In this document: in pieces, positions 30,743-57,495 of the stretch | Numbering within the stretch: the stretch's first letter is position 1 | Layout: every line of letters starts with the position of its first letter | From: a virus | Lineage: Duplodnaviria > Caudoviricetes | Direction: 5' to 3' (one strand) | Virus record (IMG/VR): IMGVR_UViG_3300036985_004505 | Location: 785 to 64,784 of that record | DNA: 64,000 nt | The notes under the pieces: generated by a model | The model's database searches: none | What the model was told of the DNA's origin: nothing | What the model saw: the letters and a program-made list of their open reading frames with translations, nothing else | Translations under genes and position numbers: made by a program

Positions 30743-31204
30743 ATGACGGAAAAAGCTGAAATAATTTCGTTGTTAAAAAACTTACAAGTTAGCCTCAAAA
30801 AGTACACTATAAAAGAACTTAACAAGGCAATGAATAAAGTTTTAGATGAGGAAGGGTTTTATGAAAAAGTAAAAGAAGACCAAGTCGCTTTAGTTTTTCA
30901 GGTAGTATGTAACCAATACAATATTAGCCGACAACAATTAATTTATAGCAAAGCAAAGGGTGAAGTTAGACAAGCGAAAATGATTACTTATTGCTTATTA
31001 CATTTTCAACTTGAATTACCAATAAGGTATATAGCAAAAAGGCTCTTTTATCTAAAGTGGCATAACAACGTGGGGATAGCAATTAAGTACCACAATAACC
31101 TAAACCCCCAAGTTAAGCCTGATAAGGAATTTATAGCTAAATTAGATGCCGTAAAACAACAAGTCGCAACGCAATTAACAACAATAAAAACAGAAAAAAT
31201 ATGA
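30743..31204 (+). CDS. stand-alone DnaA domain IV-like HTH protein
   Basis: VCNQYNISRQQLI.SK.KGEV.QAKMI..CLL....LP.RYIA...HNNV. Confidence 0.6.
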   Translation: MTEKAEIISLLKNLQVSLKKYTIKELNKAMNKVLDEEGFYEKVKEDQVALVFQVVCNQYNISRQQLIYSKAKGEVRQAKMITYCLLHFQLELPIRYIAKRLFYLKWHNNVGIAIKYHNNLNPQVKPDKEFIAKLDAVKQQVATQLTTIKTEKI

Positions 31205-32274
31205 AAGTTTATTTAAAAAGGGGTGCATTAAATTATAAAGAAAAAAGACTGGTTTCGGCTATTGAAAAAGCATTAGAAGAAAAAATAGCAAAAGAGCCTG
31301 AACTTGCCCAACAATTTGACCCAGCAAGAAATTTTGAGGAATTAAAGGCTTTATTTGACGAGCATTGTGTTACCGATACAGAATTTATTGAAGTACCAAA
31401 CGATAAAAAAGATGGTGGCGAAACAACCCACGAGGAGTTCCGTAAAAGCATAGAGGATACTATTGAAAAACCAGCACCCGAAAAAGCGTCAGAGCCAAAA
31501 ACATTTATCGACCCTTTTAATGATGCCGAGCCTATTGTTCGTGATTATGTACAAAGCGGTGGGTTAAAAGAAGATGGCGAACAACAAAGTACGCAAACAG
31601 AATTTGCAGAACCAACAACCCAAAAAGGTGCGTTTGAAATGCCATCTTCAGAGGACGAAAAAGGTTCGGGTGGCAAGTCTGAAAAAACAAAAAAACCTGA
31701 ACCATCAAAACCAATTAACCCGAAATTTGACGATATGTCAGATAGCAAGAAAAAACGTAGCACAAAGCGTTTTGCTAAAGTTATTATTGAGGGGGTTTGT
31801 TTACTTGCCGAAAAAGGTTGTATTTGGTGGACTACAAAAGATATTACCGAAGATAAACTTGCCCAATACGAAATAGATGGTGATATGGACTTGGGTATTT
31901 TACTTACCCTTGATGATGGGCAACAAGCAACTGTTAGAGAATGGTTTGCACAAAAAGTAAACGACACGCAAACTTTATTTAAAGTTTCCGAGACTGACAA
32001 AAACGACCTTATTGATAGCTTGTACGAAGTTATGCTTGAGAAAGGGGTTGCACCAACACCGATGCAAGAATTAATTATAAATGCGGTTAAAACATTTGTG
32101 CTTGATATGGGGTTAAAAGCGTTTGGGTTAAGTGCTCAAATTAATAACGTATTAGGGCAACTTAGGTCAATGAAAGCAAACACAACGGAATCTGATTTTG
32201 AGGATGAGGCAGACTTTGAAAACCCAGCTACCCAACAAGAAGAAGTAACTGAACTTGGATTAACAACAACTTAA
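31201..32274 (+). CDS. acidic protein preceding the packaging ATPase
   Basis: 357 aa, directly upstream of the ATPase. Function unknown. Confidence 0.75.
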   Translation: MKVYLKRGALNYKEKRLVSAIEKALEEKIAKEPELAQQFDPARNFEELKALFDEHCVTDTEFIEVPNDKKDGGETTHEEFRKSIEDTIEKPAPEKASEPKTFIDPFNDAEPIVRDYVQSGGLKEDGEQQSTQTEFAEPTTQKGAFEMPSSEDEKGSGGKSEKTKKPEPSKPINPKFDDMSDSKKKRSTKRFAKVIIEGVCLLAEKGCIWWTTKDITEDKLAQYEIDGDMDLGILLTLDDGQQATVREWFAQKVNDTQTLFKVSETDKNDLIDSLYEVMLEKGVAPTPMQELIINAVKTFVLDMGLKAFGLSAQINNVLGQLRSMKANTTESDFEDEADFENPATQQEEVTELGLTTT

Positions 32275-32279
32275 AAACT

Positions 32280-33107
32280 ATGGCAAAAGCAACAAGAGAG
32301 GCTGGTATGATGGCTTGTACTGGCGTGCAAGGGGTGGGTAAAACCTATCAAAATATGCACATTATTAAGGAGTACGTTAAAGATAAAGCTAAAACGCAAG
32401 TAAGGGGGCGTAAATGCTTAATTTTTGATACAAATGGTGAATACACCGCAGAGCAATTTGCGAGAAACGATATTCCAAACTTTACAATTAAAACTATTGC
32501 CGTTGGCGATATTGAAAATTGGTGCAAAACAGACGTGGCTGAGTGCCGTAGAGTTGATGCTAAAAACTTGGGTATTAGAGAAAAAAAGGATTGTGTGGAG
32601 TACATCTTAAAGGTCTACAAAAATGGTATGCTTGTTTTAGAGGATATTAACACCTACATTTTATCCGTAACTTTTATGGAGGAAATTGTAGGGGGTTTGG
32701 TAAATTTAAGGCACAGAGCGGTAGACGTTTTAATTAGCTACCAAAGTTTACGCCCAGTAGAGCCTCGTATTTGGCAAAATAGCCGTTGGGTGCGTATGCA
32801 CTATCAAGCCGATAATGTAATGGATATTAAGGGCAAAGTAACAAATGTGACGTTATTTAAAATTGCTCAGTTATTGGTAAACAAAAAGTATTTTGATGGT
32901 GATAAGCGGTTTTTTGTTTATATACACAACTTTGCAAACAAAATACAAGGAAACTTTAAGTTAGAAGAATTTGAAGAGGCTTGTAGGCAATACCTTAGTT
33001 CTAATAAAAAATACATTAGGGAATTTAAGGAAATAAATAATTGCGATATAGACGAGGCAACCGATGGTTTAGTAGAACAATATGTACATCAATATTATCA
33101 AGAATAA
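32280..33107 (+). CDS. FtsK/HerA-superfamily (A32/P9-like) genome-packaging ATPase
   Basis: GVQGVGKT Walker A, IFDTNGEY, LVLED Walker B, and RH...ISYQ arginine-finger/Gln motif. 275 aa with no terminase nuclease domain. Confidence 0.75.
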   Translation: MAKATREAGMMACTGVQGVGKTYQNMHIIKEYVKDKAKTQVRGRKCLIFDTNGEYTAEQFARNDIPNFTIKTIAVGDIENWCKTDVAECRRVDAKNLGIREKKDCVEYILKVYKNGMLVLEDINTYILSVTFMEEIVGGLVNLRHRAVDVLISYQSLRPVEPRIWQNSRWVRMHYQADNVMDIKGKVTNVTLFKIAQLLVNKKYFDGDKRFFVYIHNFANKIQGNFKLEEFEEACRQYLSSNKKYIREFKEINNCDIDEATDGLVEQYVHQYYQE

Positions 33108-33319
33108 TGGGAACTATATTTTACATTTGGAACATATTACTAATAGTTAGCGTAGTGTTGCTATTTTTAAGAAACGATTGGCGTGAAATGTTTAACGATT
33201 TAATGACAGAATTATTTACACCAAATATTTTGATGTTTTTTGTTGCGTTATTTGTGGTTTACATTTTCTTGCCCCTTACAATACCATACTCTATAAAAAA
33301 CATATTGAGGATAAAATGA
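33107..33319 (+). CDS. small membrane protein
   Basis: Starts MGTIF after the ATPase stop, two TM helices. Confidence 0.65.
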   Translation: MGTIFYIWNILLIVSVVLLFLRNDWREMFNDLMTELFTPNILMFFVALFVVYIFLPLTIPYSIKNILRIK

Positions 33320-34738: not shown

Positions 34739-35071
34739 ATGAGCAAAATACTTAACAACCATTCGGCATTTAATAAATGGCAAGTTTCAAGTGGGTTTAA
34801 GCAAAACAACGTGCCTAAAATTGATAAATACATCTATATAAAAAAATACACAAAAAGTTTAAAAGCAAATTTATCATATTCTATAAAGGAATTAATTGTA
34901 AAAGATATAAACTCACAAAAGGGTATAGTGCTTATAGGTTATGATAATATTGACGAAATGATTAACGGCATACCAGCCTTAAAAGATAGTAAAGCAATAA
35001 AGTTTCAAGAATTACGCAAAAGGGATTTGCTTGAGGCTTTTAGGTATTTACATAAACTAACATACGGCTAA
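34739..35071 (+). CDS. hypothetical protein
   Basis: 110 aa basic ORF. Confidence 0.6.
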   Translation: MSKILNNHSAFNKWQVSSGFKQNNVPKIDKYIYIKKYTKSLKANLSYSIKELIVKDINSQKGIVLIGYDNIDEMINGIPALKDSKAIKFQELRKRDLLEAFRYLHKLTYG

Positions 35072-35841
35072 TGAAAAAAGTATCAATTTGCTATATTGCA
35101 AAAAATGATTATTGGAGTTCCGTTTATAGCTTTGAGCGTAGCGGTTTTTCCGTTGTAGAAGATGTTGGCGAGTATGTTATTAAAGATGCATCAACAAAAT
35201 ACATTAAAGTTGTGGGCAATGTTGAGGTTGAGTTATTAGTAGCTTTTACCCCAAAAACAGATTGGCGTTTAAAAGATTATTTTAGCAAATTAACCCTATT
35301 AACAATAGATTTTGAAATAGAGGTAAATGATGCGGTTGCCTACAATGGTTTATTTAAAAAAGCTACTAACGATTACATTTGCATACTTAATGATAATGTT
35401 TTTTTACAAGAACATTGGCTAACAGAACTTATATACTATTACGAAAACATCCACAATAGCGGAGTTGTAAGCATTTGTGATAATTTTTGCGGTGTAAAAT
35501 TTTTACCGCTATTAACCACCGAAAAAGAAACATTCCAAAACGTGTTCTTGCCCGATAATAATATGGTGCATAACAATAGCGTTTGTATTTTCTTAAAAGA
35601 ATATTTATATTACATAGGTTGCTTTGATGAAAGCATTGAACTTTACGGCAATGAGTTAAATCAGCTCCAGTTCCGTTTTACGTCGATGGGTTACAATAAT
35701 TACTACATACCAAATCAAAGTTGTTTAGTGCTTAAAGAAAACCAAAAAATAAACTATGAAAACCTTGAAGTAGGCAATAATAATTTACAAAAAACTATTG
35801 CTGAAATGAGGAAAATAAAGAATTATTACATACCTCTTTAA
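35071..35841 (+). CDS. GT-A (family 2-like) glycosyltransferase
   Basis: KVSICYIAKN, AYNGLFKKATNDYICILNDNV..WL, IGCFDE....YG.E. Confidence 0.65.
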   Translation: MKKVSICYIAKNDYWSSVYSFERSGFSVVEDVGEYVIKDASTKYIKVVGNVEVELLVAFTPKTDWRLKDYFSKLTLLTIDFEIEVNDAVAYNGLFKKATNDYICILNDNVFLQEHWLTELIYYYENIHNSGVVSICDNFCGVKFLPLLTTEKETFQNVFLPDNNMVHNNSVCIFLKEYLYYIGCFDESIELYGNELNQLQFRFTSMGYNNYYIPNQSCLVLKENQKINYENLEVGNNNLQKTIAEMRKIKNYYIPL

Positions 35842-36282: not shown

Positions 36283-37050
36283 ATGAACTCAAAAGAAAAA
36301 GAATTGCTTAACGCAATTAACGGCACTGAGCGTATGTCAGGATTTGACTCTTACGCAGACGGTGATGATTCGTTCTTTGACGATAGCGACTTTGATGGCG
36401 ACTATGCGTTCGATGGCGACCAAATGTCTTACGCAGACGATATGTCTTACGCAGGAGGCAGTAGAGCACAAGCGGTTTCTGACCCTTATGTTATTCAATA
36501 CGACAATACGGCATTAGTTCCAGTAACGGCTATCCTTTTTGGATACAACGATTACTTTAATCAGCCGAATTTCGGTAACCCAGTATTAACAATTATTACC
36601 AACTTACAAACTGGTACTATCGCTGGTTATGGTCGTATGATTGCACAATCAAATAACAAGTTTTTTAAACTTGGTAAATGGCGTTTCCAATGTTCAACTC
36701 CAGCTCAGTTACAAATTACATTAAACATCAATCACGTTGATGCCAATGGTAAAACGTACACTTCGCCTTTGAACTTGTCAATTATGCGTGATGCTTATCA
36801 GCAACAACCTGATATTATCGATGTAACTAAACCAGTTACTATTGATGGTAACACGTTTATCACATTTACATTGTTAGCTGGTTCGGTATTTACAATTTCA
36901 ATGTTCCCAGTATCTGTTATTTCAGGTAAGGCTAAGTTGAATGGTGGTGCATCGTTAAATTCTGCAAGAGCACCTCGCTTGAGCGGTAAAAATGTTGCCC
37001 CAGTAATTATCCAAACTACGCAAGACGTAAAGGGTATCTCTGGACGCTAA
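36283..37050 (+). CDS. candidate major capsid protein (single jelly-roll-like)
   Basis: Acidic N-terminal extension plus a beta-strand-rich domain of about 150 aa. Codon usage looks like that of a highly expressed gene. Has its own terminator and a paralog at 42018. Confidence 0.55.
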   Translation: MNSKEKELLNAINGTERMSGFDSYADGDDSFFDDSDFDGDYAFDGDQMSYADDMSYAGGSRAQAVSDPYVIQYDNTALVPVTAILFGYNDYFNQPNFGNPVLTIITNLQTGTIAGYGRMIAQSNNKFFKLGKWRFQCSTPAQLQITLNINHVDANGKTYTSPLNLSIMRDAYQQQPDIIDVTKPVTIDGNTFITFTLLAGSVFTISMFPVSVISGKAKLNGGASLNSARAPRLSGKNVAPVIIQTTQDVKGISGR

Positions 37051-37128: not shown

Positions 37129-37641
37129 GTGGCACGAAACAAAAACAAAACATATAAAACCCTATTATCCGTATTAGCTAATGGCAGTACAGAACAAGCA
37201 AGGGATTTATTAACAAGACATTCGGGCGGTGATGCCCAAGACGTAAAAGACCTTGAAATTAAACTTGCAAGGGTTTACGCCACATCATCAAATAAAAAAG
37301 ATATTGAGCGTGAGTTTGCTCAAATACACCCACACAAAGATTTTATTTTAAAATACGTTACCGCAAAAGAGGAAATTAAACCCCTTGAGGCAATACACGA
37401 CCAAGTGGTAAAGCCAATAGAAAATAGCGGTACTAAAAAAATGGTTATGGTACACGATGGTTATGCAAATGCAGATGGTTGTGAACAAACTTGCGGTTGC
37501 CCTAAATGTATGGGTTATTCAAATGCAAGTGGCGAACAACCGCAAAGCGTAGATAAAGGCAACCAAAACATAATGGTACTTGGAATAGTAAGCGTAGTAG
37601 CAATTTTAGGAATGGTACTTTACATAAATAAAAATAAATAG
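37129..37641 (+). CDS. C-terminally anchored virion membrane protein
   Basis: C-terminal TM, motifs YANADG and YSNASG. Confidence 0.7.
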   Translation: MARNKNKTYKTLLSVLANGSTEQARDLLTRHSGGDAQDVKDLEIKLARVYATSSNKKDIEREFAQIHPHKDFILKYVTAKEEIKPLEAIHDQVVKPIENSGTKKMVMVHDGYANADGCEQTCGCPKCMGYSNASGEQPQSVDKGNQNIMVLGIVSVVAILGMVLYINKNK

Positions 37642-37643
37642 AT

Positions 37644-38186
37644 ATGGGGATTGAAATTAAAATGGGCGAACCAATTGATGTAAGGCAAGAAGATAATACA
37701 ACGCTTGGTGAAGAGGTAAAAGTTATTGCCAATGCTAATGTATTAAAAGCAAATAAAGAGCATAAGAACTTTACAGAAACCGAAGAAGTTATCCCAGTAG
37801 GTACTACTTTATATGGTAGGACTATTATGGTTGATGGTTTACGCAGAGGGCAACCTTTTAAATATAGGTTGTTTAGTACAAACGATAAAAAAATTATACA
37901 CTTAAATAAAATAGAACCAATGAGAACAACAGAAGTATCCTTAGGGGCAGATGCCAAACAATCGCCGACAGTAGTAGATATGGCAAGACCAAAATTAAAC
38001 TTAACAAAGTGGACTATTGGCGGTGCATTAGCTGGTGCTGGTGCTGGATATTATTATTCAGCTAAAATGAAAAATATGGACAAAAAGAAAGTTATGATTT
38101 ACTCTATCGTGGGTTTAGTAGCTGGCTTTTATATTGGCAAGGCGATTGAAAAACGCAGACCAGTTAAAATTACACCAAGCAAATAA
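37644..38186 (+). CDS. membrane protein (SH3-like N-domain plus two Gly-rich TMs)
   Basis: IGGALAGAGAG and IVGLVAG helices, same architecture as 40091-40561. Confidence 0.7.
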   Translation: MGIEIKMGEPIDVRQEDNTTLGEEVKVIANANVLKANKEHKNFTETEEVIPVGTTLYGRTIMVDGLRRGQPFKYRLFSTNDKKIIHLNKIEPMRTTEVSLGADAKQSPTVVDMARPKLNLTKWTIGGALAGAGAGYYYSAKMKNMDKKKVMIYSIVGLVAGFYIGKAIEKRRPVKITPSK

Positions 38187-38204
38187 TTAAAAAAATAAAC
38201 AACT

Positions 38205-39431
38205 ATGGAACCAACAATAGTAACATTGTCGCCTTCATCTTCACCAATTAGCGTATCTTACGAAGAGGCTTTTGGCGAATATTCTGAATTAAGAGGTCGT
38301 GGTCGTGAACGCAGAAGAAAAAGACGCCAAGAAAGGCGTATGAAACGTATTCGTGATAGACAAGAAAGAAAACGAGCAAGGCAAGAAATGAGAGCCGAGC
38401 AACAAGAATCTCGTCAATTAAGAAAAGATAAACGCAAAAGCCGTAAAGTTGCTCGTAAAGCGATGGGCGAAGATGAGGAGTCTGAGGGGCAAGAGGGCTC
38501 AGGAGAAGATAGCGGAAGTGGTAGCAATGATGGTGGCGGTAGCGGAGCACAGAGTGATGATGGTGGTGGAGCACCAACGCCAACTGATGATGGCGGTGGA
38601 AATAATGGCGGTTACACTGGTGACGGTCCTGCAGAAGGGGAGTATCAAACAACCCAAGATGGCGATATGCAATCAGGTGATGAAGAGGCGGTAGACCAAG
38701 AGCAAGGTGAATCTGACGAAGAAAGCGGTTTTACTGGAGAGTTAGGCTTTGATGGTGTTATTGCAATGAGCCCTGAAGATGCCCAATGGGATGAGTACTT
38801 TAGTTCAGCTGAGGGTAAAAAAGCTATTAACCCCTTAGTTAAAAAACTTGCTTTACTTATTGAAAAAGAAAAACACTTTATAAGTGGTTTAAATAAAAAA
38901 CTTGAGAAGTTTAGCCGTTCTAAAATGAAAGGTTCGGGTAGAGCGGTTGCTATGTTAAGAAAAAGGTTAGCCCACCATACCTCAAGGTTAAAAAGGATGG
39001 AAATGCAACTTGCAAGATACTCACGTTTCGATGGTGATTATAGCGAGGCTCGTGGCGGTAGAAGAGGTGTTGCTCGTAAAAAAGCTGAAGTTAGACGTGC
39101 TAAAAAAGAGGCTCGTAAATTGCGTAAACAAGCTATCCGTAGCCGTAAACGTGGCACAGATGTTGATTCTGAGTTACAACCTGAATTTAGCGAACAAAGA
39201 ATCGAAGTGGGTGCAGAAGAAAGCAACTTTAGTGGCACTGGCTTAATTGGTTTAGATGAGCAATATGATATTGACGCACCTGAAACACGCAAGTTTGATT
39301 TAAAATTTTCTAATGTAGAGGGCGATGAGGCTAAAAAGAAAAAACGCAAAAAAATAATTATCGGTGTTTCTATTGGCATAGCGGTTGGCGTTTTAGCTAT
39401 CGTGTTAATTAAAAAATTCGGAAAAAAATAA
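38205..39431 (+). CDS. tail-anchored protein with alternating Arg/Lys-rich and acidic blocks (possible DNA-condensing core protein)
   Basis: RGRGRERRRKRRQERR block, acidic Gly-rich linker, C-terminal TM. Confidence 0.7.
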   Translation: MEPTIVTLSPSSSPISVSYEEAFGEYSELRGRGRERRRKRRQERRMKRIRDRQERKRARQEMRAEQQESRQLRKDKRKSRKVARKAMGEDEESEGQEGSGEDSGSGSNDGGGSGAQSDDGGGAPTPTDDGGGNNGGYTGDGPAEGEYQTTQDGDMQSGDEEAVDQEQGESDEESGFTGELGFDGVIAMSPEDAQWDEYFSSAEGKKAINPLVKKLALLIEKEKHFISGLNKKLEKFSRSKMKGSGRAVAMLRKRLAHHTSRLKRMEMQLARYSRFDGDYSEARGGRRGVARKKAEVRRAKKEARKLRKQAIRSRKRGTDVDSELQPEFSEQRIEVGAEESNFSGTGLIGLDEQYDIDAPETRKFDLKFSNVEGDEAKKKKRKKIIIGVSIGIAVGVLAIVLIKKFGKK

Positions 39432-39432
39432 A

Positions 39433-40089: not shown

Positions 40090-40090
40090 A

Positions 40091-40561: not shown

Positions 40562-40577
40562 TTTAAAATAAAGCATT

Positions 40578-44428: not shown

Positions 44429-44432
44429 TAAA

Positions 44433-45418: not shown

Positions 45419-45433
45419 CAATTAAAAAAAACA

Positions 45434-45919: not shown

Positions 45920-45955
45920 AAACAAAAATAAATTAACAATTAAAAATAAAAAAAA

Positions 45956-46177
45956 ATGAAAGAGCAAATCGCAAAAATTAAAACAAACCCAGTAGGTACT
46001 GGTGTTGGTGCAGTAGGTGGTTATTTAATCGCTACAAAAGTATTAAAAACTGAAAAATTGTGGATGACTATTGCCGTTGCGGTAGTTGGAGGCGTTGTAG
46101 GTGCAATGGTACAAGCTAATATGAAAGCTAAAAAAGGTATGCCAACCGCATCAACAGTTACCGCTCCAGTAAAGTAA
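45956..46177 (+). CDS. small membrane protein
   Basis: Two Gly-rich TMs. Confidence 0.75.
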   Translation: MKEQIAKIKTNPVGTGVGAVGGYLIATKVLKTEKLWMTIAVAVVGGVVGAMVQANMKAKKGMPTASTVTAPVK

Positions 46178-46202
46178 TTTAAACATTAAAAAAAAGAACC
46201 AA

Positions 46203-49967: not shown

Positions 49968-50141
49968 ATGATAAAAAAAGAGTACACAGATAGCGAAAAA
50001 CTTGACCACATTCATAGGCAAATGCGTAGAATGGAAGTAAGTACCCACATACAAACTGGAATTGCCATAATCGGCTTTTTAGCTTTGGTTGGATTAATTC
50101 AAATAGCTGGAAAATTAAAAGGTAAAAAATTATTAGAATGA
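49968..50141 (+). CDS. small membrane protein (57 aa, absent from the ORF track)
   Basis: MIKKEYTDSEKLDH...GIAIIGFLALVGLIQIAGKLKGKKLLE*, with an ATGA overlap. Confidence 0.65.
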   Translation: MIKKEYTDSEKLDHIHRQMRRMEVSTHIQTGIAIIGFLALVGLIQIAGKLKGKKLLE

Positions 50142-50644
50142 AACCAGAAGTAAAAAAATGGCTTATTGTAGGGGGGTTGGGTGTTATTAGCGTGGCACTT
50201 GCAATGGGGTATTTACAATATCGTAAGTTGATGAATTATACAGTGAAGTTGGGCGGTGCTAAATTTAAACAAGTAACGGCAAAAGTTTTTAACTTTGATT
50301 TGTTTATAAAATTTACTAACAACTCTGACGTAAATTTCGTAATAAGTGGGCAAGAATACAAGGTTTATTTAAACGATAAATTTGTTACTAAAATAAGCAA
50401 CTCAAACGAAGTAAATATATTGCCAAAAGCTACCAATGTAATACCAATAAATGTTGATTTTAACCCAACAGAAGTGCTTAATTTAATTGGTAGCAACTTT
50501 GCAAATATATTATTAAGCCCTGAAACTATTAAGATAAAAGTAGACGGGAAATTAAATGCAAAATTATACGGCTTTACAAAGGGCATTCCGTTTGTGTTTG
50601 AAAAAAATTTAAAAGATTTAATGGCATCTAAAAAAGAGGCTTAA
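50138..50644 (+). CDS. LEA_2/WHy-domain membrane protein
   Basis: N-terminal TM, then FTNNSDVNFVI....YKVYLND...I.P......IPI. Confidence 0.7.
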   Translation: MKPEVKKWLIVGGLGVISVALAMGYLQYRKLMNYTVKLGGAKFKQVTAKVFNFDLFIKFTNNSDVNFVISGQEYKVYLNDKFVTKISNSNEVNILPKATNVIPINVDFNPTEVLNLIGSNFANILLSPETIKIKVDGKLNAKLYGFTKGIPFVFEKNLKDLMASKKEA

Positions 50645-50938: not shown

Positions 50939-53833
50939 ATGGGAGCAAATAGGACTGAAATATTTAACGTAACACGCCTAACTGCGCCAGTTACTTATGT
51001 TGTAAAAAGTGCGGATGATATGATTGATGTAGATACATCTTCAGGTGGGTTGACTACTATTTACATTCCAAACATAGTCCAAAATGGCTTAAATTTAGTT
51101 GGTAAAACTTACACTATTAACGATGTTAGTAACAATGCGAGTGTTGGAAATATAACAATTATATGTTTAAACGGCGACACTATTAACAACTTTCCAGCCC
51201 TTACTTTAAGTACCGATGGCATTAGTGCCAATATTATACAAGTTGACCGCACACGTTATTTAGCAACGACTAATATAGCTGGAGGCACTTCTTCTGTTTT
51301 ATTAATACCAATTACATACGCTCAACTTGTTAGCCTTATTGGTTCTGGTGGCTTAATTGCTGGTCAAAAATACCTATTAACAGATTACGAAACTATTTAC
51401 GACCAACCCGATTACGATAGTTTAGGAAACCCTAAAGCCGTTGTAAATACAAATACTGGAGCGGTTGAGCCTTTAATTTTAGAGGCGGTATCAAGCACCG
51501 ATATTTCAAGCGTTGTTCAATCAACAATTTACCCAAGTGATTTAATTGAATATAATTGGAATTTTCAAAATACAGAATATAGCGGAAAGCCAGCAAAGGG
51601 CTTTATTACAGGCCGAACTATACCAGTTGGAAATACATTAAGTAATTTTTTAAGAACGCCTTACGATTTAAGAGCAGTAGTTTTTAAAAGGTATTTCAAT
51701 CCTATTAACGGCAATTTCAATATTGTAAACGATAATGGTTTAGCATCAGTAAATAATTTGCCTACTTTCGGTAATGGTTGCTATAACATTTACTTAGACG
51801 ATAATATTTTACCAACAACTCCTCAACCATTTTTATTGACTAATAATGTTTTTGGTAAGAATTGTAAAAATATTAAAACTGGGTATCAATTTGTGGGTAA
51901 CAGTATTGGTGTTGATTGCGATAATATGAGTTTTGGAGATACTTGTCGTTATAATATATTAAACAACAAGGCATCTAATAATATTATATGTAATAACTTT
52001 TCTTTTAATGTAATATCTGATAGTTTTTCAAACAACCAAATAGCTAATGGTTTTTTGCAAAACGAAATAGGCAATAGGTTTATTTTAAACGAAATTGGGG
52101 GTAATTTCGCTTATAATGTAATAACAAAAGGTTTTGATAATAATATTATTGGGGATAATTTTCAAAATAATATAATTTCGGATGATTTTAAGCAAAACCA
52201 TATAGGAGAAAACTTTAATTTTAACACAAATATTGATAAAAATTTTATTAGTAATGTAATTGGAAATGATTTTGCTAATAATTTTCCTATTGGTGTTAAT
52301 TTTAATTATAACCATATTGGCGATGGTTTTGCAAATAACGAAATAGGGAATTATTTTGGTTCTATCAATAATACAATTACTATTGTTCCAGTTGGCAACA
52401 TAATCGGTAACTTTTTTAATGGCAATTTAATAGGAGATAATTTTTACGGAAACAATATTCAAAATTTCTTTCAATCAAACACAATAAGTAGCATTTTTGC
52501 ATCTAATAAAATCGGAAATGGTTTTAGGGACAACGATACTACTGGCGAGTTTGAAAGCAACCAGATAGGCGATATATTTCGTTTTAACACGCCTATTGGA
52601 GCAAAGTTCAACAACAATAACATAGGCGATAGGTTTTTTCAAAATTCAAATATTGGTGGCAATTTTGATTCAAACCAAATAGGAAATTATTTTACCTTAA
52701 ATACAAATATTGGAAGTGGTTTTGTTCGCAACGTAATTGGTAATGATTTTAAAAATAATTCTGCTATTGGACAAGACTTTGTAGCTAATCATATAGGAAA
52801 TCATTTTCAAAACAATAACATAGGCGATAATTTTGGTGGCGATGGTAGAGAACAATATGGCAACATAATAGGCAACTTTTTCCAAGAAAACACTATATCA
52901 AGCGATGGGTTTTTTAGCAATAATATTGGCAATTATTTTTCTGCAAATGTAATAGGTGGTAATTTTGATAACAACTTAATTCAGAATAACTTTACAAATA
53001 ATACAACTTTAGGTGGTTTTTCCAGCAATCGAATAGGTAATAGCTTTATCGGTAATATCAATATAGATAATGGCTTTACATCAAATGATATAGGCGATAG
53101 ATTTGAAAATAACGATACTATTGGAATAGCTTTTCAAAACAATGTAATTGGCAATTTATTTACTGGAAACACTAATATAGGCACAAGTTTTACTGGCAAT
53201 AAAATCGGTTATTTTTTTACTAACAACACTAACATAGGAGATAACTTTTCAAACAATGTTATTTTAAATAGTTTTGTAAATAATATAAACATAGGAATAG
53301 GTTTTACAAGTAATAAAATAGCCTCTGATTTTATTGGCAACGCTATTGCTGATTCGTTTAGCAATAATACAATTAACGATTATTTTGATGGAAATACAAT
53401 AGGCATAGGTTTTAACTCAAACGAAATAGGTCTTAGTTTTCAAGCCAATGTTATATCAACCTCATATAATACTAATATAATTAAAGACAATTTTGTCGGT
53501 AACACTATTGGCACGAACTTTTATCAAAACGATATTAAAACTAATTTTCAAGGAAATGGCATAGGGGATATGTTTAATAATAATATAATAGGTAATAGTT
53601 TTGTAAGTAACATAAATATTGGCAACAATTTTCAATTAAACAATATAGTGACAGCCATTGTAGGTTACGATTTTAGCCTTGCTACTTATGTATATGGAGG
53701 CTATACAAAAAACATATTTTTAGCCGTTGATAGTGCCACATCAATAACAACTGATTATTTAGAATATTTTGATACAAACCCTATGTTTATAGGTTCTCCA
53801 AAATGGGTATATATAACACCAATTAATTCATAA
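50939..53833 (+). CDS. long spike/fibre-like protein with NxIG beta-solenoid repeats
   Basis: Dozens of roughly 11-aa F..N.IG repeats, and an ITYAQL..LI....L..GQKY..TDY head domain. Confidence 0.7.
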   Translation: MGANRTEIFNVTRLTAPVTYVVKSADDMIDVDTSSGGLTTIYIPNIVQNGLNLVGKTYTINDVSNNASVGNITIICLNGDTINNFPALTLSTDGISANIIQVDRTRYLATTNIAGGTSSVLLIPITYAQLVSLIGSGGLIAGQKYLLTDYETIYDQPDYDSLGNPKAVVNTNTGAVEPLILEAVSSTDISSVVQSTIYPSDLIEYNWNFQNTEYSGKPAKGFITGRTIPVGNTLSNFLRTPYDLRAVVFKRYFNPINGNFNIVNDNGLASVNNLPTFGNGCYNIYLDDNILPTTPQPFLLTNNVFGKNCKNIKTGYQFVGNSIGVDCDNMSFGDTCRYNILNNKASNNIICNNFSFNVISDSFSNNQIANGFLQNEIGNRFILNEIGGNFAYNVITKGFDNNIIGDNFQNNIISDDFKQNHIGENFNFNTNIDKNFISNVIGNDFANNFPIGVNFNYNHIGDGFANNEIGNYFGSINNTITIVPVGNIIGNFFNGNLIGDNFYGNNIQNFFQSNTISSIFASNKIGNGFRDNDTTGEFESNQIGDIFRFNTPIGAKFNNNNIGDRFFQNSNIGGNFDSNQIGNYFTLNTNIGSGFVRNVIGNDFKNNSAIGQDFVANHIGNHFQNNNIGDNFGGDGREQYGNIIGNFFQENTISSDGFFSNNIGNYFSANVIGGNFDNNLIQNNFTNNTTLGGFSSNRIGNSFIGNINIDNGFTSNDIGDRFENNDTIGIAFQNNVIGNLFTGNTNIGTSFTGNKIGYFFTNNTNIGDNFSNNVILNSFVNNINIGIGFTSNKIASDFIGNAIADSFSNNTINDYFDGNTIGIGFNSNEIGLSFQANVISTSYNTNIIKDNFVGNTIGTNFYQNDIKTNFQGNGIGDMFNNNIIGNSFVSNINIGNNFQLNNIVTAIVGYDFSLATYVYGGYTKNIFLAVDSATSITTDYLEYFDTNPMFIGSPKWVYITPINS

Positions 53834-53843
53834 AACAACCAAA

Positions 53844-54179
53844 ATGAACACAGAACATTTAGCATTAGAAAAACACTTAAAAAAATCAACAATTACAAGT
53901 AATTTAGTAAGCGTTTTTATAGCATTATTAACGGCATTAAGCGTTGGTTATGGTTTTTACTACAATACTAACAACACGCTTGATAGCCACACGATACAAA
54001 TTAAAGAGGTTAAAACAGACGTTGAAAGTTTAAAAGATGCCGTAAATAATTCGGCAATTTTTCAAGGTGCAACTGGAGAACAAATTAAAGCGGTTGAGGT
54101 ACAAGTAAACGATGTTAAAGCATCACAAATTCGTATTGAGGAAAAACTTGATAGATTAATTTTAAGGGCAACAAAATGA
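53844..54179 (+). CDS. TM plus coiled-coil protein (holin/hemolysin-like)
   Basis: Single TM, then heptads ending RIEEKLDRL. Confidence 0.55.
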   Translation: MNTEHLALEKHLKKSTITSNLVSVFIALLTALSVGYGFYYNTNNTLDSHTIQIKEVKTDVESLKDAVNNSAIFQGATGEQIKAVEVQVNDVKASQIRIEEKLDRLILRATK

Positions 54180-54484
54180 TAGTAAAAACAGATAACCCAG
54201 TAATATATTCCAACGCTTTTGGCGATGGTGCTTTGCGTGATAAATTTAAAGGCTTTATTGAAAAAGCTAAAGGCTCTGGTGGTTTAATGGACAAGGCTAA
54301 AGGCTTACTTGGGGGTTTAGGCGGAGGCGGTCAACAACAACAGCAACAAGCTACTTTACCACCACCACCACCACCGAAACCAAAAGGGATGAGTAAAAAC
54401 CTTAAAATCGGCTTAATTGTTGGCGGTAGTATTTTGGTGCTTGGCATTATTGCCGTTATAATTATAAAATCAAAAAACAAATGA
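54176..54484 (+). CDS. tail-anchored membrane protein
   Basis: MIVKTDNPVIYSNAFG N-motif and a KGMSKNLKIGLIVGG anchor. Confidence 0.75.
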   Translation: MIVKTDNPVIYSNAFGDGALRDKFKGFIEKAKGSGGLMDKAKGLLGGLGGGGQQQQQQATLPPPPPPKPKGMSKNLKIGLIVGGSILVLGIIAVIIIKSKNK

Positions 54485-55921: not shown

Positions 55922-55939
55922 TAACTAAAATATAAAAAA

Positions 55940-56182
55940 ATGACAAAGTTTACAAAAGGACAAGCGGTTAAATTTTTACGAAATGCCGTAACAAAATCAG
56001 ATTCAACTATTGTTAGTGCGGTAGTTACCTTACCTGAAAATGTACCAACAGAATTAGGGCAATCTTACATTATTGAACACGGATTAGGCTGGGCTCCAAA
56101 CCCTTTAAGGGTAAAAAGTTTTGAATTAAATGCTGATAAGAAATATTTATTTGTTAGCGAAAAAGAATTAACCTTAATCTAA
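55940..56182 (+). CDS. small SH3-like protein
   Basis: KFTKGQAV...FVSEKEL. Confidence 0.6.
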   Translation: MTKFTKGQAVKFLRNAVTKSDSTIVSAVVTLPENVPTELGQSYIIEHGLGWAPNPLRVKSFELNADKKYLFVSEKELTLI

Positions 56183-56187
56183 AAAAA

Positions 56188-57495
56188 ATGTTTGGTTTCG
56201 ACTCATATAATCAATTAACAAACGCTGGTTTAAACTATGTTGGAACTTGGAACGCATCGACTAATATACCTTTGCTTACAAGCGGAGTTGGTACACAAGG
56301 CGACTATTACATAGTAAATGTTGGTGGCAATACTAACTTAGATGGAGTAAACGATTGGAGCGTTGGCGATTGGGCTATATTCAACGGCACTACTTGGCAA
56401 AAAATAGATAATAGCGGAATAAGTTATCAAGGTAACTGGGATGCCTTAACTAATAACCCTTTTTTACAAAGTAGCGTTGGTTTTGATGGACATTTTTATA
56501 TTGTTAATGTTGCTGGTAGTACAAATTTAAACGGCATTACATCGTGGAATATAGGGGATTGGGCTATATTTACCTCTGGCGTTTGGTTAAAAATAGACAA
56601 TTCAAGCGGTCTTAATACTATTGTAACAGATAATGCAACAATAATAGGTAACGGCACGTTAGCAACCCCTTTAGAAGTAGGTGCTTTAAATAATTCGGCA
56701 AATGATAAGTTTATGGTTTTTGGCTCAAGTCAATGGGGTACAGTTGCACCATTAACAAATTTATTAAATGGTCAAACGGCAAATGGTTTCGCTTTTTTTA
56801 CCGATGGCGGTAGCAAAGTAGTTGATGGAACAACACCCTATGATGAGTATTTTATTTACGCTGGTAGAACAATAACTTTAACTGGTACGTCTGGTAGTGC
56901 AAACATAAACATTTTAGGCACTAATTATTTAGCAACTTTTACAACCAACCTTACAACTACCGCAAATAATTTTGTTACCGCTTATCAAGCTACTTTATTA
57001 GCTTTAGGCATACAAGTTTATGCAAATTTAGGAGTTTTAAAGTTTGGTAGAAAGTCAGATAGTTTAGGTGGTTCGGCAGTTTTATCAGCTATTACAATTA
57101 CTAATGTTATAGCAAATCTTAGCGGAACTTTAGGGGTTGTAACAAACGACCATACTGTTATACCATATTTAGGGCGACCTTATGAAAATTTAAGATTAAA
57201 TCACACTATTAGAGTTAATTTTAATATTGGTTTAGGGAATACTCAAACGCTATCTTTACAATTACTCAGATGGCAAGACGATTCAATTATTGGTTCAGTT
57301 ATAGCAGTTGATAGAAATAATGATATAACTGGAGTACAAGAAGTTTTTAATTCATATACTGCTAATGCTAACGACCCATTTGTTACTGGCGGTTTTTACT
57401 TTGCTTTAGTTAATAATACTGGTGTAACGATTGGTATATTAGGCAACGCTGGAATATTAATACAAACAACTTACCAAAAACTATGTAATTTCTAA
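56188..57495 (+). CDS. fibre/receptor-binding-like protein with a duplicated Trp-rich module
   Basis: Two copies of Y.G.W.A.TN.P.L.S.VG..G..YIVNV.G.TNL.G...W..GDWAIF....W.KIDN. Confidence 0.65.
   Translation: MFGFDSYNQLTNAGLNYVGTWNASTNIPLLTSGVGTQGDYYIVNVGGNTNLDGVNDWSVGDWAIFNGTTWQKIDNSGISYQGNWDALTNNPFLQSSVGFDGHFYIVNVAGSTNLNGITSWNIGDWAIFTSGVWLKIDNSSGLNTIVTDNATIIGNGTLATPLEVGALNNSANDKFMVFGSSQWGTVAPLTNLLNGQTANGFAFFTDGGSKVVDGTTPYDEYFIYAGRTITLTGTSGSANINILGTNYLATFTTNLTTTANNFVTAYQATLLALGIQVYANLGVLKFGRKSDSLGGSAVLSAITITNVIANLSGTLGVVTNDHTVIPYLGRPYENLRLNHTIRVNFNIGLGNTQTLSLQLLRWQDDSIIGSVIAVDRNNDITGVQEVFNSYTANANDPFVTGGFYFALVNNTGVTIGILGNAGILIQTTYQKLCNF

What the first reader, a model, noticed from the sequence alone, without database searches (positions are those of the whole stretch)
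30743..57495. Virion module of an apparently tailless, membrane-containing large Bacteroidota phage
Seen: a 275-aa FtsK/HerA-type ATPase (32280), two paralogous beta-rich proteins (36283, 42018), about twenty single- or double-pass membrane proteins, a membrane-anchored lysozyme, a LEA_2 protein and spike-like proteins. No recognisable terminase, portal, HK97 capsid, tape measure or tail tube occurs in this 27-kb structural block. Established: FtsK/HerA (P9/A32-like) packaging ATPases with many internal-membrane proteins are hallmarks of jelly-roll viruses such as PRD1, PM2 and the sphaerolipoviruses, whose genomes are much smaller than this window. Inference: this is a large (at least 64 kb) tailless virus lineage that carries a tailed-phage-like replication kit (DnaB, RecE-like, RusA).
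Basis: partly seen in the sequence, partly recalled or inferred. Interest (0 to 1): 0.92.

Follow-up and report, generated by a model that had tools for sequence, protein, structure and literature searches.

The report
Large tailless-type jelly-roll lake phage
This is the particle-building half of an uncultured lake-water virus of about 65 kb that has jelly-roll coat-type proteins, a small packaging-type ATPase and many membrane proteins but no detectable tailed-phage genes, so it probably belongs to an undescribed, unusually large group of tailless, membrane-lined phages.

Summary
The block 30743-57495 encodes:
- a 275-aa P-loop ATPase with weak HerA/TrwB-type matches;
- two distantly paralogous proteins (36283, 42018; hhalign 92.8%) whose predicted cores are eight-stranded jelly rolls;
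- 16 predicted membrane proteins among 33 ORFs, eight of them C-terminally anchored;
- a conserved HExxH protein;
- a GH108-like lysozyme with a C-terminal anchor (language-model evidence only);
- a LEA_2 protein and three fibre or spike-like proteins.

No terminase, portal, HK97 capsid, tape-measure or tail-tube family matched. I scanned 52 ORFs with Pfam (every ORF of 170 aa or more) and 40 with PHROGs.

The record is one contig of 64,784 bp. Its first 111 bases are the exact reverse complement of a stretch near its right end. Contigs from three samples extend and branch there as expected for inverted terminal repeats of at least 0.8 kb. The genome is therefore probably linear and essentially complete, which leaves little room for hidden tail genes.

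The two jelly-roll families and the ATPase are very widespread (1099 clusters at 50% identity for 36283). They show no sequence link to PRD1, P23-77 or SSIP-1.

The parts
30743..31204 (+). 153-aa protein with a weak DnaA-domain-IV-type helix-turn-helix. It is the first gene of the conserved block upstream of the ATPase and a candidate DNA-recognition factor for packaging (inferred).
   Evidence: Pfam Bac_DnaA_C E 9.6e-4, below cut-off. Homologues lie just upstream of the ATPase in 10 of 12 related loci.
31201..32274 (+). 357-aa protein with a long acidic, probably disordered middle part. It always sits directly before the ATPase. Its role is unknown; a packaging or scaffolding accessory is inferred.
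   Evidence: No Pfam or PHROGs family. 31-46% identical homologues in 10 of 12 loci.
32280..33107 (+). 275-aa P-loop ATPase and candidate genome-packaging motor. It has no nuclease domain.
   Evidence: Walker A and B are invariant in 12 of 12 homologues. DUF87/HerA matches 10 of 12 members and TrwB 9 of 12, all below cut-off. ESM clusters carry DUF87 17-20% and Zot 13-14%. The family has 1099 hits.
33041..33319 (+). 92-aa protein with two predicted membrane segments that overlaps the end of the ATPase gene. It is a positional analogue of the small membrane proteins beside PRD1 P9 (inferred).
   Evidence: Hydropathy scan. Homologues in 4 of 12 loci. PRD1 gene order.
35071..35841 (+). 256-aa protein with a weak glycosyltransferase family 2 match.
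   Evidence: Pfam Glycos_transf_2 E 1.8e-4, below cut-off. Homologues in 10 of 12 loci.
36283..37050 (+). Jelly-roll protein 1 (255 aa) and best major-capsid-protein candidate. It has an N-terminal helix, an acidic disordered stretch (residues 19-60) and an eight-stranded jelly-roll core (61-235).
37129..41216 (+). Six consecutive membrane-protein genes: 37129-37641, 37644-38186, 38205-39431, 39433-40089, 40091-40561 and 40578-41216. Five are C-terminally anchored; 40091 has two segments.
   Evidence: Hydropathy scan. Most have homologues in 10 of 12 loci at 27-49% identity. No Pfam or PHROGs family above threshold.
41216..42013 (+). 265-aa protein with an invariant HExxH...E...D motif. It is a predicted zinc metallopeptidase and candidate virion maturation protease (function inferred).
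   Evidence: H187, E188, H191, E205 and D209 are invariant in 8 of 8 homologues, including the distant L012. Only faint Peptidase_M56 and SprT-like matches. No PDB sequence match.
42018..42956 (+). Jelly-roll protein 2 (312 aa), a paralogue of 36283 with a longer N-terminal extension. It is either a second capsid protein or the vertex (penton) protein.
   Evidence: hhalign 92.8%, E 4e-7, 99 columns. AF2 pLDDT 57.6, core 60-83. Foldseek and VIA matches to single-jelly-roll coats. 599 homologues.
42960..44228 (+). 422-aa spike or fibre-like protein. It has an N-terminal domain shared with 50939 and 45434, a glycine run, and a DUF2793 region.
   Evidence: DUF2793 5.3e-8. Tail-fibre PHROGs at 4.5e-4 and 2.3e-3. 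Its N-terminus is 29% identical to 50939 over 126 residues, E 0.003.
44234..46718 (+). Six small genes. Four have predicted membrane segments (44433, 44870, 45956, 46203). 45434 is a beta-rich soluble protein weakly like the spike N-terminal domain.
   Evidence: No family match.
46725..47453 (+). 242-aa GH108-like lysozyme candidate with a hydrophobic C-terminus. It would be a virion-membrane-anchored wall-degrading enzyme (inferred).
   Evidence: ESM Atlas only: feature scores 0.93/0.89/0.87 to clusters that carry GH108, and TM 0.53-0.58 by structure. No match in Pfam, PHROGs or PDB sequences.
47455..49247 (+). Two C-terminally anchored proteins (176 and 421 aa) rich in the [FY]x[NSDG]A[DNE]G motif.
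   Evidence: 3 and 4 motif copies.
50138..50644 (+). 168-aa N-terminally anchored LEA_2 protein.
   Evidence: Pfam LEA_2 E 2e-5, 25.4 bits, equal to the cut-off. Hydropathy scan.
50939..53833 (+). 964-aa repeat protein (N-x-I-G-x-x-F units, probably a beta-helix) with the shared spike N-terminal domain. It is a spike candidate.
   Evidence: Sequence. No Pfam or PHROGs family. N-terminal similarity to 42960.
53844..54484 (+). Two small membrane proteins (111 and 102 aa). The second is C-terminally anchored.
56188..57495 (+). 435-aa fibre-like protein with two tandem repeats of about 70 aa that also occur in tail proteins of tailed phages.
   Evidence: phrog_29238 9.3e-25, phrog_31460 'tail protein' 3.8e-18, phrog_13892 'minor tail protein' 7.8e-16.
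57695..58300 (+). It marks the lysis end of the late operon.
   Evidence: phrog_2649 endolysin 3.1e-43. Peptidase_M15_4 3.8e-17 and VanY 9.6e-14.
63268..64000 (.). Right copy of the inverted terminal repeat, at least 733 bp in this record. Its inner 111 bases (63268-63378) are the exact reverse complement of genome bases 1-111.

Best explanation
The block is the virion-assembly (late) module of a lytic, uncultured freshwater phage. The host is probably in Bacteroidota. The genome is linear, about 65.5 kb, with inverted terminal repeats.

Most likely design (inferred): a tailless icosahedral shell of jelly-roll proteins built over a virus-modified lipid vesicle.

Shown by computation:
- Two paralogous jelly-roll proteins (36283, 42018) belong, with a 275-aa P-loop ATPase (32280) and an HExxH protein (41216), to the set of genes conserved in related contigs.
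- 16 of the 33 ORFs are predicted membrane proteins.
- No tailed-phage hallmark family is detectable in what is probably the complete genome.

Inferred mechanism:
- The many C-terminally anchored proteins insert into the host cytoplasmic membrane with their N-terminal parts in the cytoplasm.
- 36283, alone or together with 42018, polymerises on that patch into pseudo-hexagonal capsomers and pinches off a membrane-lined procapsid.
- 42018 either pairs with 36283 or forms the fivefold vertices. Those vertices would carry the spikes 42960, 50939 and 45434 through their shared N-terminal domain.
- The ATPase, docked at one vertex beside the small two-pass membrane protein 33041, pumps the linear genome in without cutting it. 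It has no nuclease domain, and a unit-length genome with terminal repeats needs none.
- The HExxH protein may trim the acidic N-terminal leaders that carry the recurrent [FY]x[NSDG]A[DNE]G motif.
- At infection the anchored GH108-like enzyme opens the cell wall.
- At the end of the cycle the M15 endolysin cassette lyses the cell.
For: Genome scope. The record is one contig of 64,784 bp and the window is bases 785-64784.

Ends.
- Bases 1-111 are the exact reverse complement of 64052-64162.
- In 3 of the 4 runs laid, a separate contig (494, 807 and 715 nt) ends on bases 1-111 and overhangs the left end by 383, 696 and 604 nt. The fourth run, X4, has no cover of bases 1-500.
- Those contigs have higher depth than the neighbouring contig: 15.3 against 9.7-10.9, 20.6 against 17.8, and 12.9 against 6.
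- The unique-sequence contig starts at base 82.
- In run X2 a contig branches after base 111 into 30 bases that match window 63238-63267 on the minus strand exactly, next to the inner repeat border.
- A homologue of the terminal ORF lies at the very end of a related 84-kb record.

Jelly rolls.
- The 36283 model has pLDDT 85.5, and about 98 for the core.
- BFVD gives 49 matches at E<=1e-3, mostly picorna-like or nepovirus coats.
- The two are paralogues: 92.8%, E 4e-7.

Conservation.
- The ATPase and 36283 occur in 12 of 12 related loci.
- 41216 occurs in 9 of 12 and 42018 in 7 of 12. Several of these loci end before those genes.
- 686 and 599 close homologues. 1099 clusters at 50% identity.

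No hallmark of tailed phages.
- 52 ORFs scanned with Pfam, including all of 170 aa or more.
- 40 ORFs scanned with PHROGs.
- Phage_portal 0 of 1 in six frames. Terminase_6N 0 of 5 relatives.
- By contrast the replication genes match phage families strongly: phrog_412 at 1.4e-60, phrog_1362 at 1.7e-55.

Membrane proteins.

ATPase.

Motif: 13 copies in 7 late proteins, 0 in the other proteins, shuffle mean 0.2 and maximum 2 of 500. I wrote the pattern after seeing the sequences.

Host and habitat.
- 5 of 8 MAG contigs that carry the 36283 family are binned as Bacteroidota.
- The holder runs are lake-water and sediment metagenomes.
Against: - The 42018 model is poor (pLDDT 57.6).
- I found no sequence or profile link to the capsid proteins or ATPases of PRD1, P23-77 or SSIP-1. 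The PDB profile searches for A1, A2 and A4 were also empty of meaningful hits.
- The ATPase matches cover only the Walker A region and stay below the curated cut-offs. Pox_A32 was not among the matches at E<=0.05. I did not model its fold.
- Some late proteins match PHROGs annotated as tail or connector:
  - 56188: tail protein 3.8e-18, minor tail protein 7.8e-16.
  - 42960: tail fibre 4.5e-4.
  - 25164: tail protein 0.0018.
  - 49293: head-tail adaptor 0.0064, with no single stretch passing.
- CheckV rates the record 57% complete and five relatives 37-61%. IMG/VR found no end repeats.
- Relatives reach 84-111 kb, so genome content varies.
- The ends of five related records and of two MAG contigs showed no inverted repeat.
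- The members of the ATPase's and lysozyme's ESM clusters are labelled mostly Uroviricota by automatic taxonomy.
- A membrane, a shell geometry and the absence of a tail cannot be read from sequence.
Confidence: 0.62

Rival explanations
1. It is a tailed phage (Caudoviricetes), most likely a short-tailed one. Its capsid, portal and terminase would have diverged beyond Pfam and PHROGs recognition. The jelly-roll proteins would be decoration, cement or tail-tip proteins.
For: - Jelly-roll domains do occur in tail and cement proteins of tailed phages. Examples in the match lists are the phicrAss001 muzzle, Sf6 and HS1 needle knobs, KHP40 cement and Pam1.
- 56188, 42960 and 25164 match PHROGs annotated as tail proteins.
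- 49293 has a faint head-tail adaptor match.
- The replication genes are of tailed-phage type.
- Automatic taxonomy of related clusters says Uroviricota.
- CheckV rates the record 57% complete.
- crAss-like phages once looked equally dark (recalled).
Against: - No ORF of 170 aa or more matches a terminase, although that is normally the easiest phage gene to recognise.
- The only packaging-type ATPase is 275 aa and has no nuclease domain.
- Among ORFs of 400 aa or more, only 25164 and 26564 have no assignment, and only 23351 has just a DUF match. They lie among polyvalent-protein and MoxR genes in the early or middle region. In the flanks fetched they had no tblastn match, but those flanks reach only 10 kb.
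- There is no long helical tape-measure candidate.
- The genes most conserved across relatives are the ATPase and the two jelly-roll proteins.
- The inverted-repeat ends leave no room for a missing module.
- Half of the late ORFs are membrane proteins.
Confidence: 0.2
2. It is a tailless jelly-roll virus, but the roles differ from my reading. One possibility is that 36283 and 42018 are vertex or minor proteins and the true major capsid protein is an unrecognised double jelly roll or another fold. Another is that the particle has no internal membrane and the membrane proteins act in the infected cell.
For: - 42018 sits directly before a spike gene, as P31 sits before P5 in PRD1.
- Relatives of 36283 exist with two or three tandem cores.
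- The membrane is inferred only from hydropathy.
Against: - 36283 is the most conserved and most widespread late protein, which fits a major shell protein.
- No other late ORF of suitable size had any capsid-family match.
- The membrane-protein genes are interleaved with the jelly-roll genes in one operon and are conserved in relatives.
Confidence: 0.12
3. It is not a virus. It would be a linear plasmid-like mobile element whose TrwB/HerA-like ATPase, membrane proteins and wall hydrolase form a DNA-transfer apparatus.
For: - Weak TrwB_AAD_bind matches in 9 of 12 ATPase homologues.
- DUF932 and an ART-PolyVal polyvalent protein also occur on conjugative elements (the association is recalled).
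- Inverted terminal repeats are typical of linear plasmids (recalled).
Against: - No VirB4-size ATPase, relaxase or other type IV secretion family matched in 52 ORFs.
- An endolysin closes the late operon.
- There are fibre domains shared with phage tail proteins.
- The conserved core consists of jelly-roll proteins.
- Relatives are filed as viral contigs.
Confidence: 0.03

Closest known systems
Halopanivirales (kingdom Helvetiavirae): Thermus phage P23-77 (Matshushitaviridae), Sphaerolipoviridae, Simuloviridae
   Same: [quoted passage not shown] My source for this is the abstract starts of PMC12643093 and PMC12642351 in the listings, and the P23-77 annotation.
- Sphaerolipoviruses also have linear genomes with inverted terminal repeats.
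- The window has two paralogous jelly-roll proteins, a 275-aa ATPase, many membrane proteins and inverted terminal repeats.
   Different: - No sequence or profile similarity to P23-77 VP16, VP17 or ORF13. The best is the ATPase against ORF13: 15.7%, 39 columns, barely above P-loop controls.
- These capsid proteins are not among the 50 best structural matches.
- The genome is 65 kb against 16-31 kb.
- The ATPase and the two jelly-roll genes are not adjacent. They are 3.2 kb and 5 kb apart, whereas they are contiguous in P23-77.
- The window additionally has a conserved HExxH protein and a family of C-terminally anchored proteins.
- The hosts are mesophilic freshwater bacteria rather than thermophiles or halophiles.
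[quoted passage not shown]
   Same: - The review PMC6356626 says it encodes two capsid protein types and has a genome with hardly any database similarity (passages).
- Its host, Salisaeta, is related to Bacteroidota (recalled).
   Different: - No window protein matches any SSIP-1 ORF at E<=1 with phmmer. The A1 and A2 profiles find nothing better than E 2.
- SSIP-1 is circular and comes from a hypersaline site.
- The original paper (PMC3344969) is not held, so I could not compare its details.
Tectiviridae (PRD1, PR772)
   Same: - Linear genome with inverted terminal repeats, internal membrane, a small packaging ATPase next to small membrane proteins, a jelly-roll penton followed by a spike gene, and virion-associated wall hydrolases (annotation).
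   Different: - No double-jelly-roll capsid protein, protein-primed polymerase or terminal protein was detected here.
- Replication genes are DnaB, RecE-like and RusA.
- The genome is more than four times larger.
- hhalign of the ATPase profile with P9 aligns only the Walker A loop (1.7%).

Membership tests
Caudoviricetes (tailed phages) | Large terminase (ATPase plus nuclease) | tested here: not met
   No terminase family matched in 52 ORFs by Pfam or 40 by PHROGs. Terminase_6N found nothing in 5 of 5 related records. This is an HMM-level test only; the fold was not tested.
Caudoviricetes (tailed phages) | Portal protein | tested here: not met
   Phage_portal (PF04860) gave 0 matches at E<=0.1 in six frames of the record. 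The ORF scans found no portal family. Other portal families were tested only through those whole-library ORF scans.
Caudoviricetes (tailed phages) | HK97-fold major capsid protein | tested here: inconclusive
   No capsid family matched by HMM (same calls). Only two ORFs were modelled, and both are jelly rolls. The other ORFs were not folded.
Halopanivirales / Helvetiavirae | Two related single-jelly-roll major capsid proteins | tested here: inconclusive
   Two paralogous jelly-roll proteins are present. That they are the major shell proteins, stand upright in the shell and pair with each other is not shown.
Halopanivirales / Helvetiavirae | Detectable homology to VP16/VP17-type capsid proteins | tested here: inconclusive
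   hhalign of A3 and A1 against P23-77 VP16 and VP17 gave at most 0.4%. These proteins are not among the 50 rows shown by either structural search. The templates were single sequences, so sensitivity is low.
Halopanivirales / Helvetiavirae | Contiguous ATPase - small MCP - large MCP gene block | tested here: not met
   The ATPase ends at 33107, 36283 starts 3.2 kb later, and 42018 starts 5 kb after 36283 ends. In P23-77 the three genes span 6740-9389.
FtsK/HerA-superfamily packaging ATPases (PRD1 P9 / A32 type) | Walker A and B motifs plus family-level profile match | tested here: inconclusive
   Both motifs are invariant. DUF87 matches 10 of 12 members and TrwB 9 of 12, but below cut-off and over the N-terminal 75 residues only. 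Pox_A32 was not among the matches at E<=0.05. The PDB profile search was empty. PRD1 P9 aligns only at Walker A.
Internal-membrane icosahedral viruses in general | Lipid bilayer under the protein shell | not testable with these tools
   The only indirect evidence is that 16 of the 33 late ORFs are predicted membrane proteins.
Tectiviridae | Double-jelly-roll MCP, protein-primed family B polymerase and terminal protein | tested here: not met
   No polymerase or DJR capsid family matched in any scanned ORF. Inverted terminal repeats are present.
Glycoside hydrolase family 108 (for 46725) | Profile match to PF05838 | tested here: inconclusive
   No Pfam match even at E<=1. The ESM Atlas feature and structure neighbours carry PF05838.

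The most novel reading that the evidence does not exclude
These contigs represent a new high-rank group of tailless, membrane-lined bacterial viruses. They would be abundant in lakes and sediments and infect Bacteroidota. Their genomes would be linear, 60 to over 100 kb, with inverted terminal repeats, replicated with a tailed-phage-type kit instead of a protein-primed polymerase. Their capsid-protein family also contains natural proteins with two and three tandem jelly-roll cores, so one living family would span the step from single to double jelly-roll capsid proteins. A built-in metalloprotease and a shared peptide motif would point to a maturation pathway not described for such phages.
Probability: 0.35. 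Interest if true: 0.92.

Novelty: new variant of a known kind. Interest (0 to 1): 0.8.

Why it matters
The cultured ones named in the passages I read come largely from extreme habitats or from plasmid-bearing hosts.

A widespread freshwater lineage of 65 kb or more would:
- raise the size limit for this particle design in prokaryotes;
- show that it can combine with a tailed-phage replication kit;
- show that many contigs now labelled by default as tailed phages, or rated as half-complete, are something else.

The family of 36283, with single, double and triple cores, could make the long-discussed origin of double-jelly-roll capsid proteins testable with natural sequences.

Practically, 36283 and the ATPase are excellent markers for finding and isolating these viruses.

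Tried and rejected
Searches of the phage collection. Megablast of 30743-55000 and tblastn of the ATPase and 36283 gave no match.

PDB sequence or profile searches. The profiles for 42018, the ATPase and 41216, and the single sequence of 46725, gave nothing meaningful.

SSIP-1 as a relative. No similarity was found. Its ORF 29 happens to have the same length as the ATPase, but by eye its printed sequence shows no P-loop and looks like an antirepressor-type protein (my own reading, no search run).

hhalign of the A2, A3 and A1 profiles against 13 PRD1 and 14 P23-77 proteins plus three P-loop controls from the window. Nothing rose above 15.7%.

Complex prediction of the 36283 and 42018 cores. The result was 'no answer', score 0.00 in two runs, and the controls were not folded. 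This says nothing either way.

Ends of related contigs. I looked for inverted repeats at the ends of five related IMG/VR records and two MAG contigs and found none. These records may be fragments.
- One MAG contig of 88 kb starts with the homologue of our first unique left-arm gene.
- An 84-kb record ends with the homologue of our terminal ORF.

Genomic context of the tandem-core relatives (P0266, P0303).
- Scans of viral contigs and metagenome contigs confirmed no locus.
- So I do not know what kind of element carries those genes. Their contigs are 4-107 kb.

The profile search with the ATPase alignment listed only close relatives. 4 of the 120 listed carry DUF87, so it did not reach annotated distant families.

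A conjugation-type reading was considered and rejected (see rivals).

Literature. Four searches and passages of PMC5894146 and PMC6356626 showed no description of this lineage.

Full report
WHAT THE RECORD IS. The window is bases 785-64784 of a single-contig virus record of 64,784 bp.
- Genes run on the + strand from 564 to 59358. A short array on the - strand runs from 59496 to the right end.
- GC is 28-40% and there are no tRNA genes.
- The left third holds replication and DNA-modification genes:
  - DnaB (7.3e-93);
  - a DUF3799/RecE-like exonuclease (phrog_412, 1.4e-60);
  - RusA;
  - two TET/JBP dioxygenases that are 61% identical to each other;
  - DUF932.
- The middle holds an ART-PolyVal polyvalent protein, a MoxR-type AAA_5 ATPase, a DUF7192 protein and two unassigned large ORFs.
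An M15 endolysin at 57695 closes the operon.

CHECK OF THE OBSERVATION. Every listed item is at its coordinates.
- ATPase (32280-33107). Walker A (GVQGVGKT) and Walker B (LVLED) are invariant, and further conserved Arg, Gln and His residues are shared by 12 of 12 homologues.
  - Pfam gives only sub-threshold matches to the first 75 residues: DUF87/HerA in 10 of 12 members (best 6.4e-5), TrwB_AAD_bind in 9 of 12 and AAA_22 in 10 of 12.
  - Its ESM Atlas neighbours are clusters in which 17-20% of members carry DUF87 and 13-14% carry Zot.
- Membrane proteins. A hydropathy scan flags 17 of the 33 ORFs between 33041 and 54481. One of them (36283) is a false call that lies in modelled strands. Eight have a single segment within 12 residues of the C-terminus.
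- LEA_2 (50138) scores exactly at the cut-off.
- The 'lysozyme' (46725) has no HMM support. It has GH108-bearing neighbours in the ESM Atlas by features (0.93, 0.89, 0.87) and by predicted structure (TM 0.53-0.58 by query to the clusters where 99-100% of members carry GH108).
- Spike or fibre candidates are 42960 (DUF2793, 5.3e-8), 56188 (phrog_29238, 9.3e-25) and the 964-aa repeat protein 50939.

THE TWO BETA-RICH PROTEINS ARE PARALOGOUS JELLY ROLLS.
- Paralogy. Direct BLASTP is marginal (E 8e-4). Profiles built from 30 and 55 homologues align with 92.8% probability, E 4e-7, over 99 columns. This maps 36283 residues 111-209 onto 42018 residues 186-292.
- 36283 model. With 137 diverse sequences the AlphaFold model reaches pLDDT 85.5 and about 98 across residues 61-220. 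It shows an N-terminal helix, a disordered acidic stretch and a beta sandwich of eight main strands with two short helices.

  |---|---|
  | PR772 penton P31 (rmsd 3.2, 99 aligned) | 6.6 |
  | Grapevine fanleaf virus coat | 6.3 |
  | EhV-201 capsid protein | 5.7 |
  | phiCjT23 capsid chain | 5.7 |
  | FLiP MCP | 5.7 |
  | Faustovirus MCP | 5.5 |
  | PBCV-1 capsid chain | 5.5 |
  | STIV A223 | 5.3 |
  | adenovirus hexon | 5.2 |
  | PRD1 P3 | 4.7 |

- Other searches with the 36283 model.
  - Foldseek against PDB has no match at E<=1e-3. Its best rows are picorna-like and comovirus coats, PRD1 P5, phage needle knobs and CBM16.
  - Against predicted viral structures there are 49 matches at E<=1e-3, mostly picorna-like and nepovirus coat proteins.
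- 42018 model. It is weak overall (pLDDT 57.6, core blocks 60-83). It gives the same picture:
  - Physalis mottle virus coat, E 9e-4;
  - potato leafroll virus coat, probability 0.99, TM 0.48 by target;
- Conclusion. Both are jelly rolls of the general viral-coat kind, but the scores are in the range where only the fold class is safe.

CONSERVATION POINTS TO THESE GENES AS THE CORE.
- Twelve related viral contigs of 19-84 kb were found with the ATPase.
- Within 10 kb on either side:
  - the ATPase (33-76% identity) and 36283 (28-68%) are present in 12 of 12;
  - the HExxH protein 41216 is in 9 of 12;
  - 42018 is in 7 of 12, and several loci end before these last two genes;
  - the two genes upstream of the ATPase and most of the anchored proteins are in 10 of 12.
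- The distant locus L012 (ATPase 33% identical) still keeps the 36283 and 41216 homologues.
- Family sizes. 36283 has 686 close homologues and 42018 has 599. An exhaustive profile search finds 1099 clusters at 50% identity with E<=1e-3 and 556 with E<=1e-10. None carries a Pfam domain or an informative name.
- Contig sizes. The longest contigs of many close homologues cluster at 52-68 kb, with others up to 111 kb and one of 236 kb.

NO TAILED-PHAGE HALLMARKS, AND THE GENOME IS PROBABLY COMPLETE.
- Pfam was run on 52 ORFs, which include all 43 ORFs of 170 aa or more on the coding strands. PHROGs was run on 40 ORFs. No terminase, portal, major capsid, tape-measure, sheath or tube family appeared.
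- Six-frame searches found no Phage_portal in the record and no Terminase_6N in five related records of 57-84 kb. Both families ring in control genomes.
- The hits that PHROGs labels tail or connector are:
  - fibre-type domains in 56188, 42960 and 25164;
  - an endolysin domain shared with a tape-measure family;
  - a faint head-tail adaptor match in 49293 (E 0.0064, no stretch passing on its own).
- Against completeness, CheckV rates the record 57% complete.
- For completeness, the ends tell another story:
  - Bases 1-111 are the exact reverse complement of 64052-64162.
  - When public contigs of four runs were laid on the left 3 kb, three runs behaved alike. One of them may be the source sample; two are lake-water samples from another study.
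  - In each of the three, a separate contig of 494, 807 or 715 nt ends on bases 1-111 and hangs 383-696 nt over the left end.
  - Its depth is 1.2- to 2.2-fold that of the neighbouring contig.
  - The unique contig starts at base 82, one k-mer inside the repeat.
  - In run X2 a further contig leaves base 111 into 30 bases identical to the minus strand of window 63238-63267, which is the sequence just inside the right repeat copy.
- This is the graph signature of an inverted terminal repeat of at least 0.8 kb. The assembler kept it whole at one end and cut it to 111 bases at the other. The repeat contigs differ in length between samples, as expected for fading cover at physical ends rather than a fixed branch.
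- The terminal ORF's homologue lies at the extreme end of a related 84-kb record. An 88-kb MAG contig begins with the homologue of our first unique left-arm gene.
- I therefore take the genome as linear, about 65.5 kb, and complete, with perhaps 75-80% confidence. The low CheckV figure would then come from larger relatives.

HOW IT MOST LIKELY WORKS. The statement field marks which steps are shown and which are inferred. In short:
- A jelly-roll shell, made of 36283 with or without 42018, assembles on a membrane patch loaded with phage proteins.
- Many of those proteins are C-terminally anchored, so their N-terminal parts would face the shell.
- A nuclease-less ATPase then fills the particle with a unit-length linear genome.
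- Supporting details:
  - A two-pass 92-aa membrane protein overlaps the ATPase gene's end. This recalls P20 and P22 near P9 in PRD1.
  - The N-terminal domain of about 120 aa in 42960 is weakly shared with 50939 (29% identity over 126 residues). 45434 weakly matches a 67-residue stretch of it (24%, E 0.007). This suggests interchangeable spikes on one socket.
  - The invariant HExxH...E...D protein lies next to 42018.
  - The motif [FY]x[NSDG]A[DNE]G occurs 13 times in seven late proteins, never in the other proteins, and at most twice in 500 shuffles. I defined the pattern after reading the sequences.
- Whether the protease cuts at that motif is a guess.

COMPARISON WITH KNOWN GROUPS.
- The closest design is that of the Halopanivirales. 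P23-77, sphaerolipoviruses and simuloviruses have two single-jelly-roll capsid proteins, an internal membrane and a small ATPase, and some have linear genomes with terminal repeats.
- Membership is not shown:
  - there is no profile similarity;
  - these proteins are absent from the rows shown by the structural searches;
  - the gene block is not contiguous;
  - the genome is two to four times larger.
- SSIP-1 (43,788 bp) is the nearest in size and host affiliation but shares no detectable sequence.
- PRD1-type tectiviruses share the end structure and several positional analogies. They use a double-jelly-roll protein and protein-primed replication, and neither was detected here.

HOST AND HABITAT.
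- Five of eight MAG contigs with the 36283 family are binned as Bacteroidota: Saprospiraceae, Saprospira, Flavobacteriaceae and two unclassified. The others are one Clostridiaceae and two archaeal bins, which may be binning errors.
- Source names on homologues include Flavobacterium and Chitinophagales.
- Runs holding the left end are lake-water and sediment metagenomes.
- The host phylum is thus plausible but rests on co-binning only.

NOVELTY.
- Four literature searches and passages of two papers gave no description of such a lineage. Supplements and subscription journals could not be checked.
- The scan itself met the lineage before on another genome (e1-6073210) and reached the same reading.
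- I class it as a new variant of a known kind: a tailless, membrane-lined jelly-roll virus. If confirmed, its size, replication kit, protease and anchored-protein family set it apart at a high taxonomic rank.

Noticed in passing
genome bases 1-111 (outside the window) and window 63268-64000: There are inverted terminal repeats of at least 0.8 kb that contain a coding ORF read inward from each end. The genome is therefore probably linear, yet no protein-primed polymerase or terminal protein was detected. The replication genes found are DnaB, RecE-like and RusA, which raises the question of how the ends are replicated (hairpins resolved by RusA, or end patching).
   Followed up: yes
proteins P0266, P0303, P0322, P0376 (two cores) and P0351 (three cores), relatives of window 36283-37050: Some relatives of the jelly-roll protein hold two or three tandem copies of the core in one chain (domain E-values 1e-16 to 1e-35). 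They look like natural single-to-double jelly-roll fusions. Their contigs are 4-107 kb, and I could not fetch their gene neighbourhoods.
   Followed up: partly
window 37129-49961: The motif [FY]x[NSDG]A[DNE]G occurs 13 times in seven late proteins and never in the other proteins (shuffles: mean 0.2, maximum 2 of 500). I wrote the pattern after reading the sequences. Looser variants also occur in the acidic leader of 36283.
   Followed up: partly
window 41216-42013: This conserved protein has an invariant HExxH...E...D motif and no family assignment. It is kept even in the most distant related locus (L012).
   Followed up: partly
window 3614-4480 and 4735-5610: Two tandem TET/JBP-type dioxygenase genes (Pfam 5.7e-24 and 2.2e-23) are 61% identical to each other. 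This implies modified DNA bases.
   Followed up: no
window 18700-28786: This region holds an 824-aa polyvalent protein with an ART-PolyVal domain, a MoxR-type AAA_5 ATPase, a DUF7192 protein and two unassigned ORFs of 472 and 740 aa. The 472-aa ORF is repeat-rich; the 740-aa ORF carries recurrent x-x-G-G linkers. These are the only large proteins left without any assignment.
   Followed up: partly
locus L003 (IMG/VR contig name containing GVMAG) and records G000-G005: One relative is filed as part of a giant-virus metagenome bin. CheckV rates this record and five relatives only 37-61% complete. Automatic cluster taxonomy says Uroviricota. Standard pipelines therefore appear to misplace this lineage.
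   Followed up: no
window 42960-44228, 45434-45919, 50939-53833: 42960 and 50939 share a weakly similar N-terminal domain of about 120 aa followed by a glycine run, and 45434 weakly matches a 67-residue stretch of it. This could be a common socket for alternative spikes.
   Followed up: partly
genome 14858-14903 and 16157-16201 (window 14074-14119 and 15373-15417): A 47-bp direct repeat (89% identity) lies inside the array of very small ORFs.
   Followed up: no
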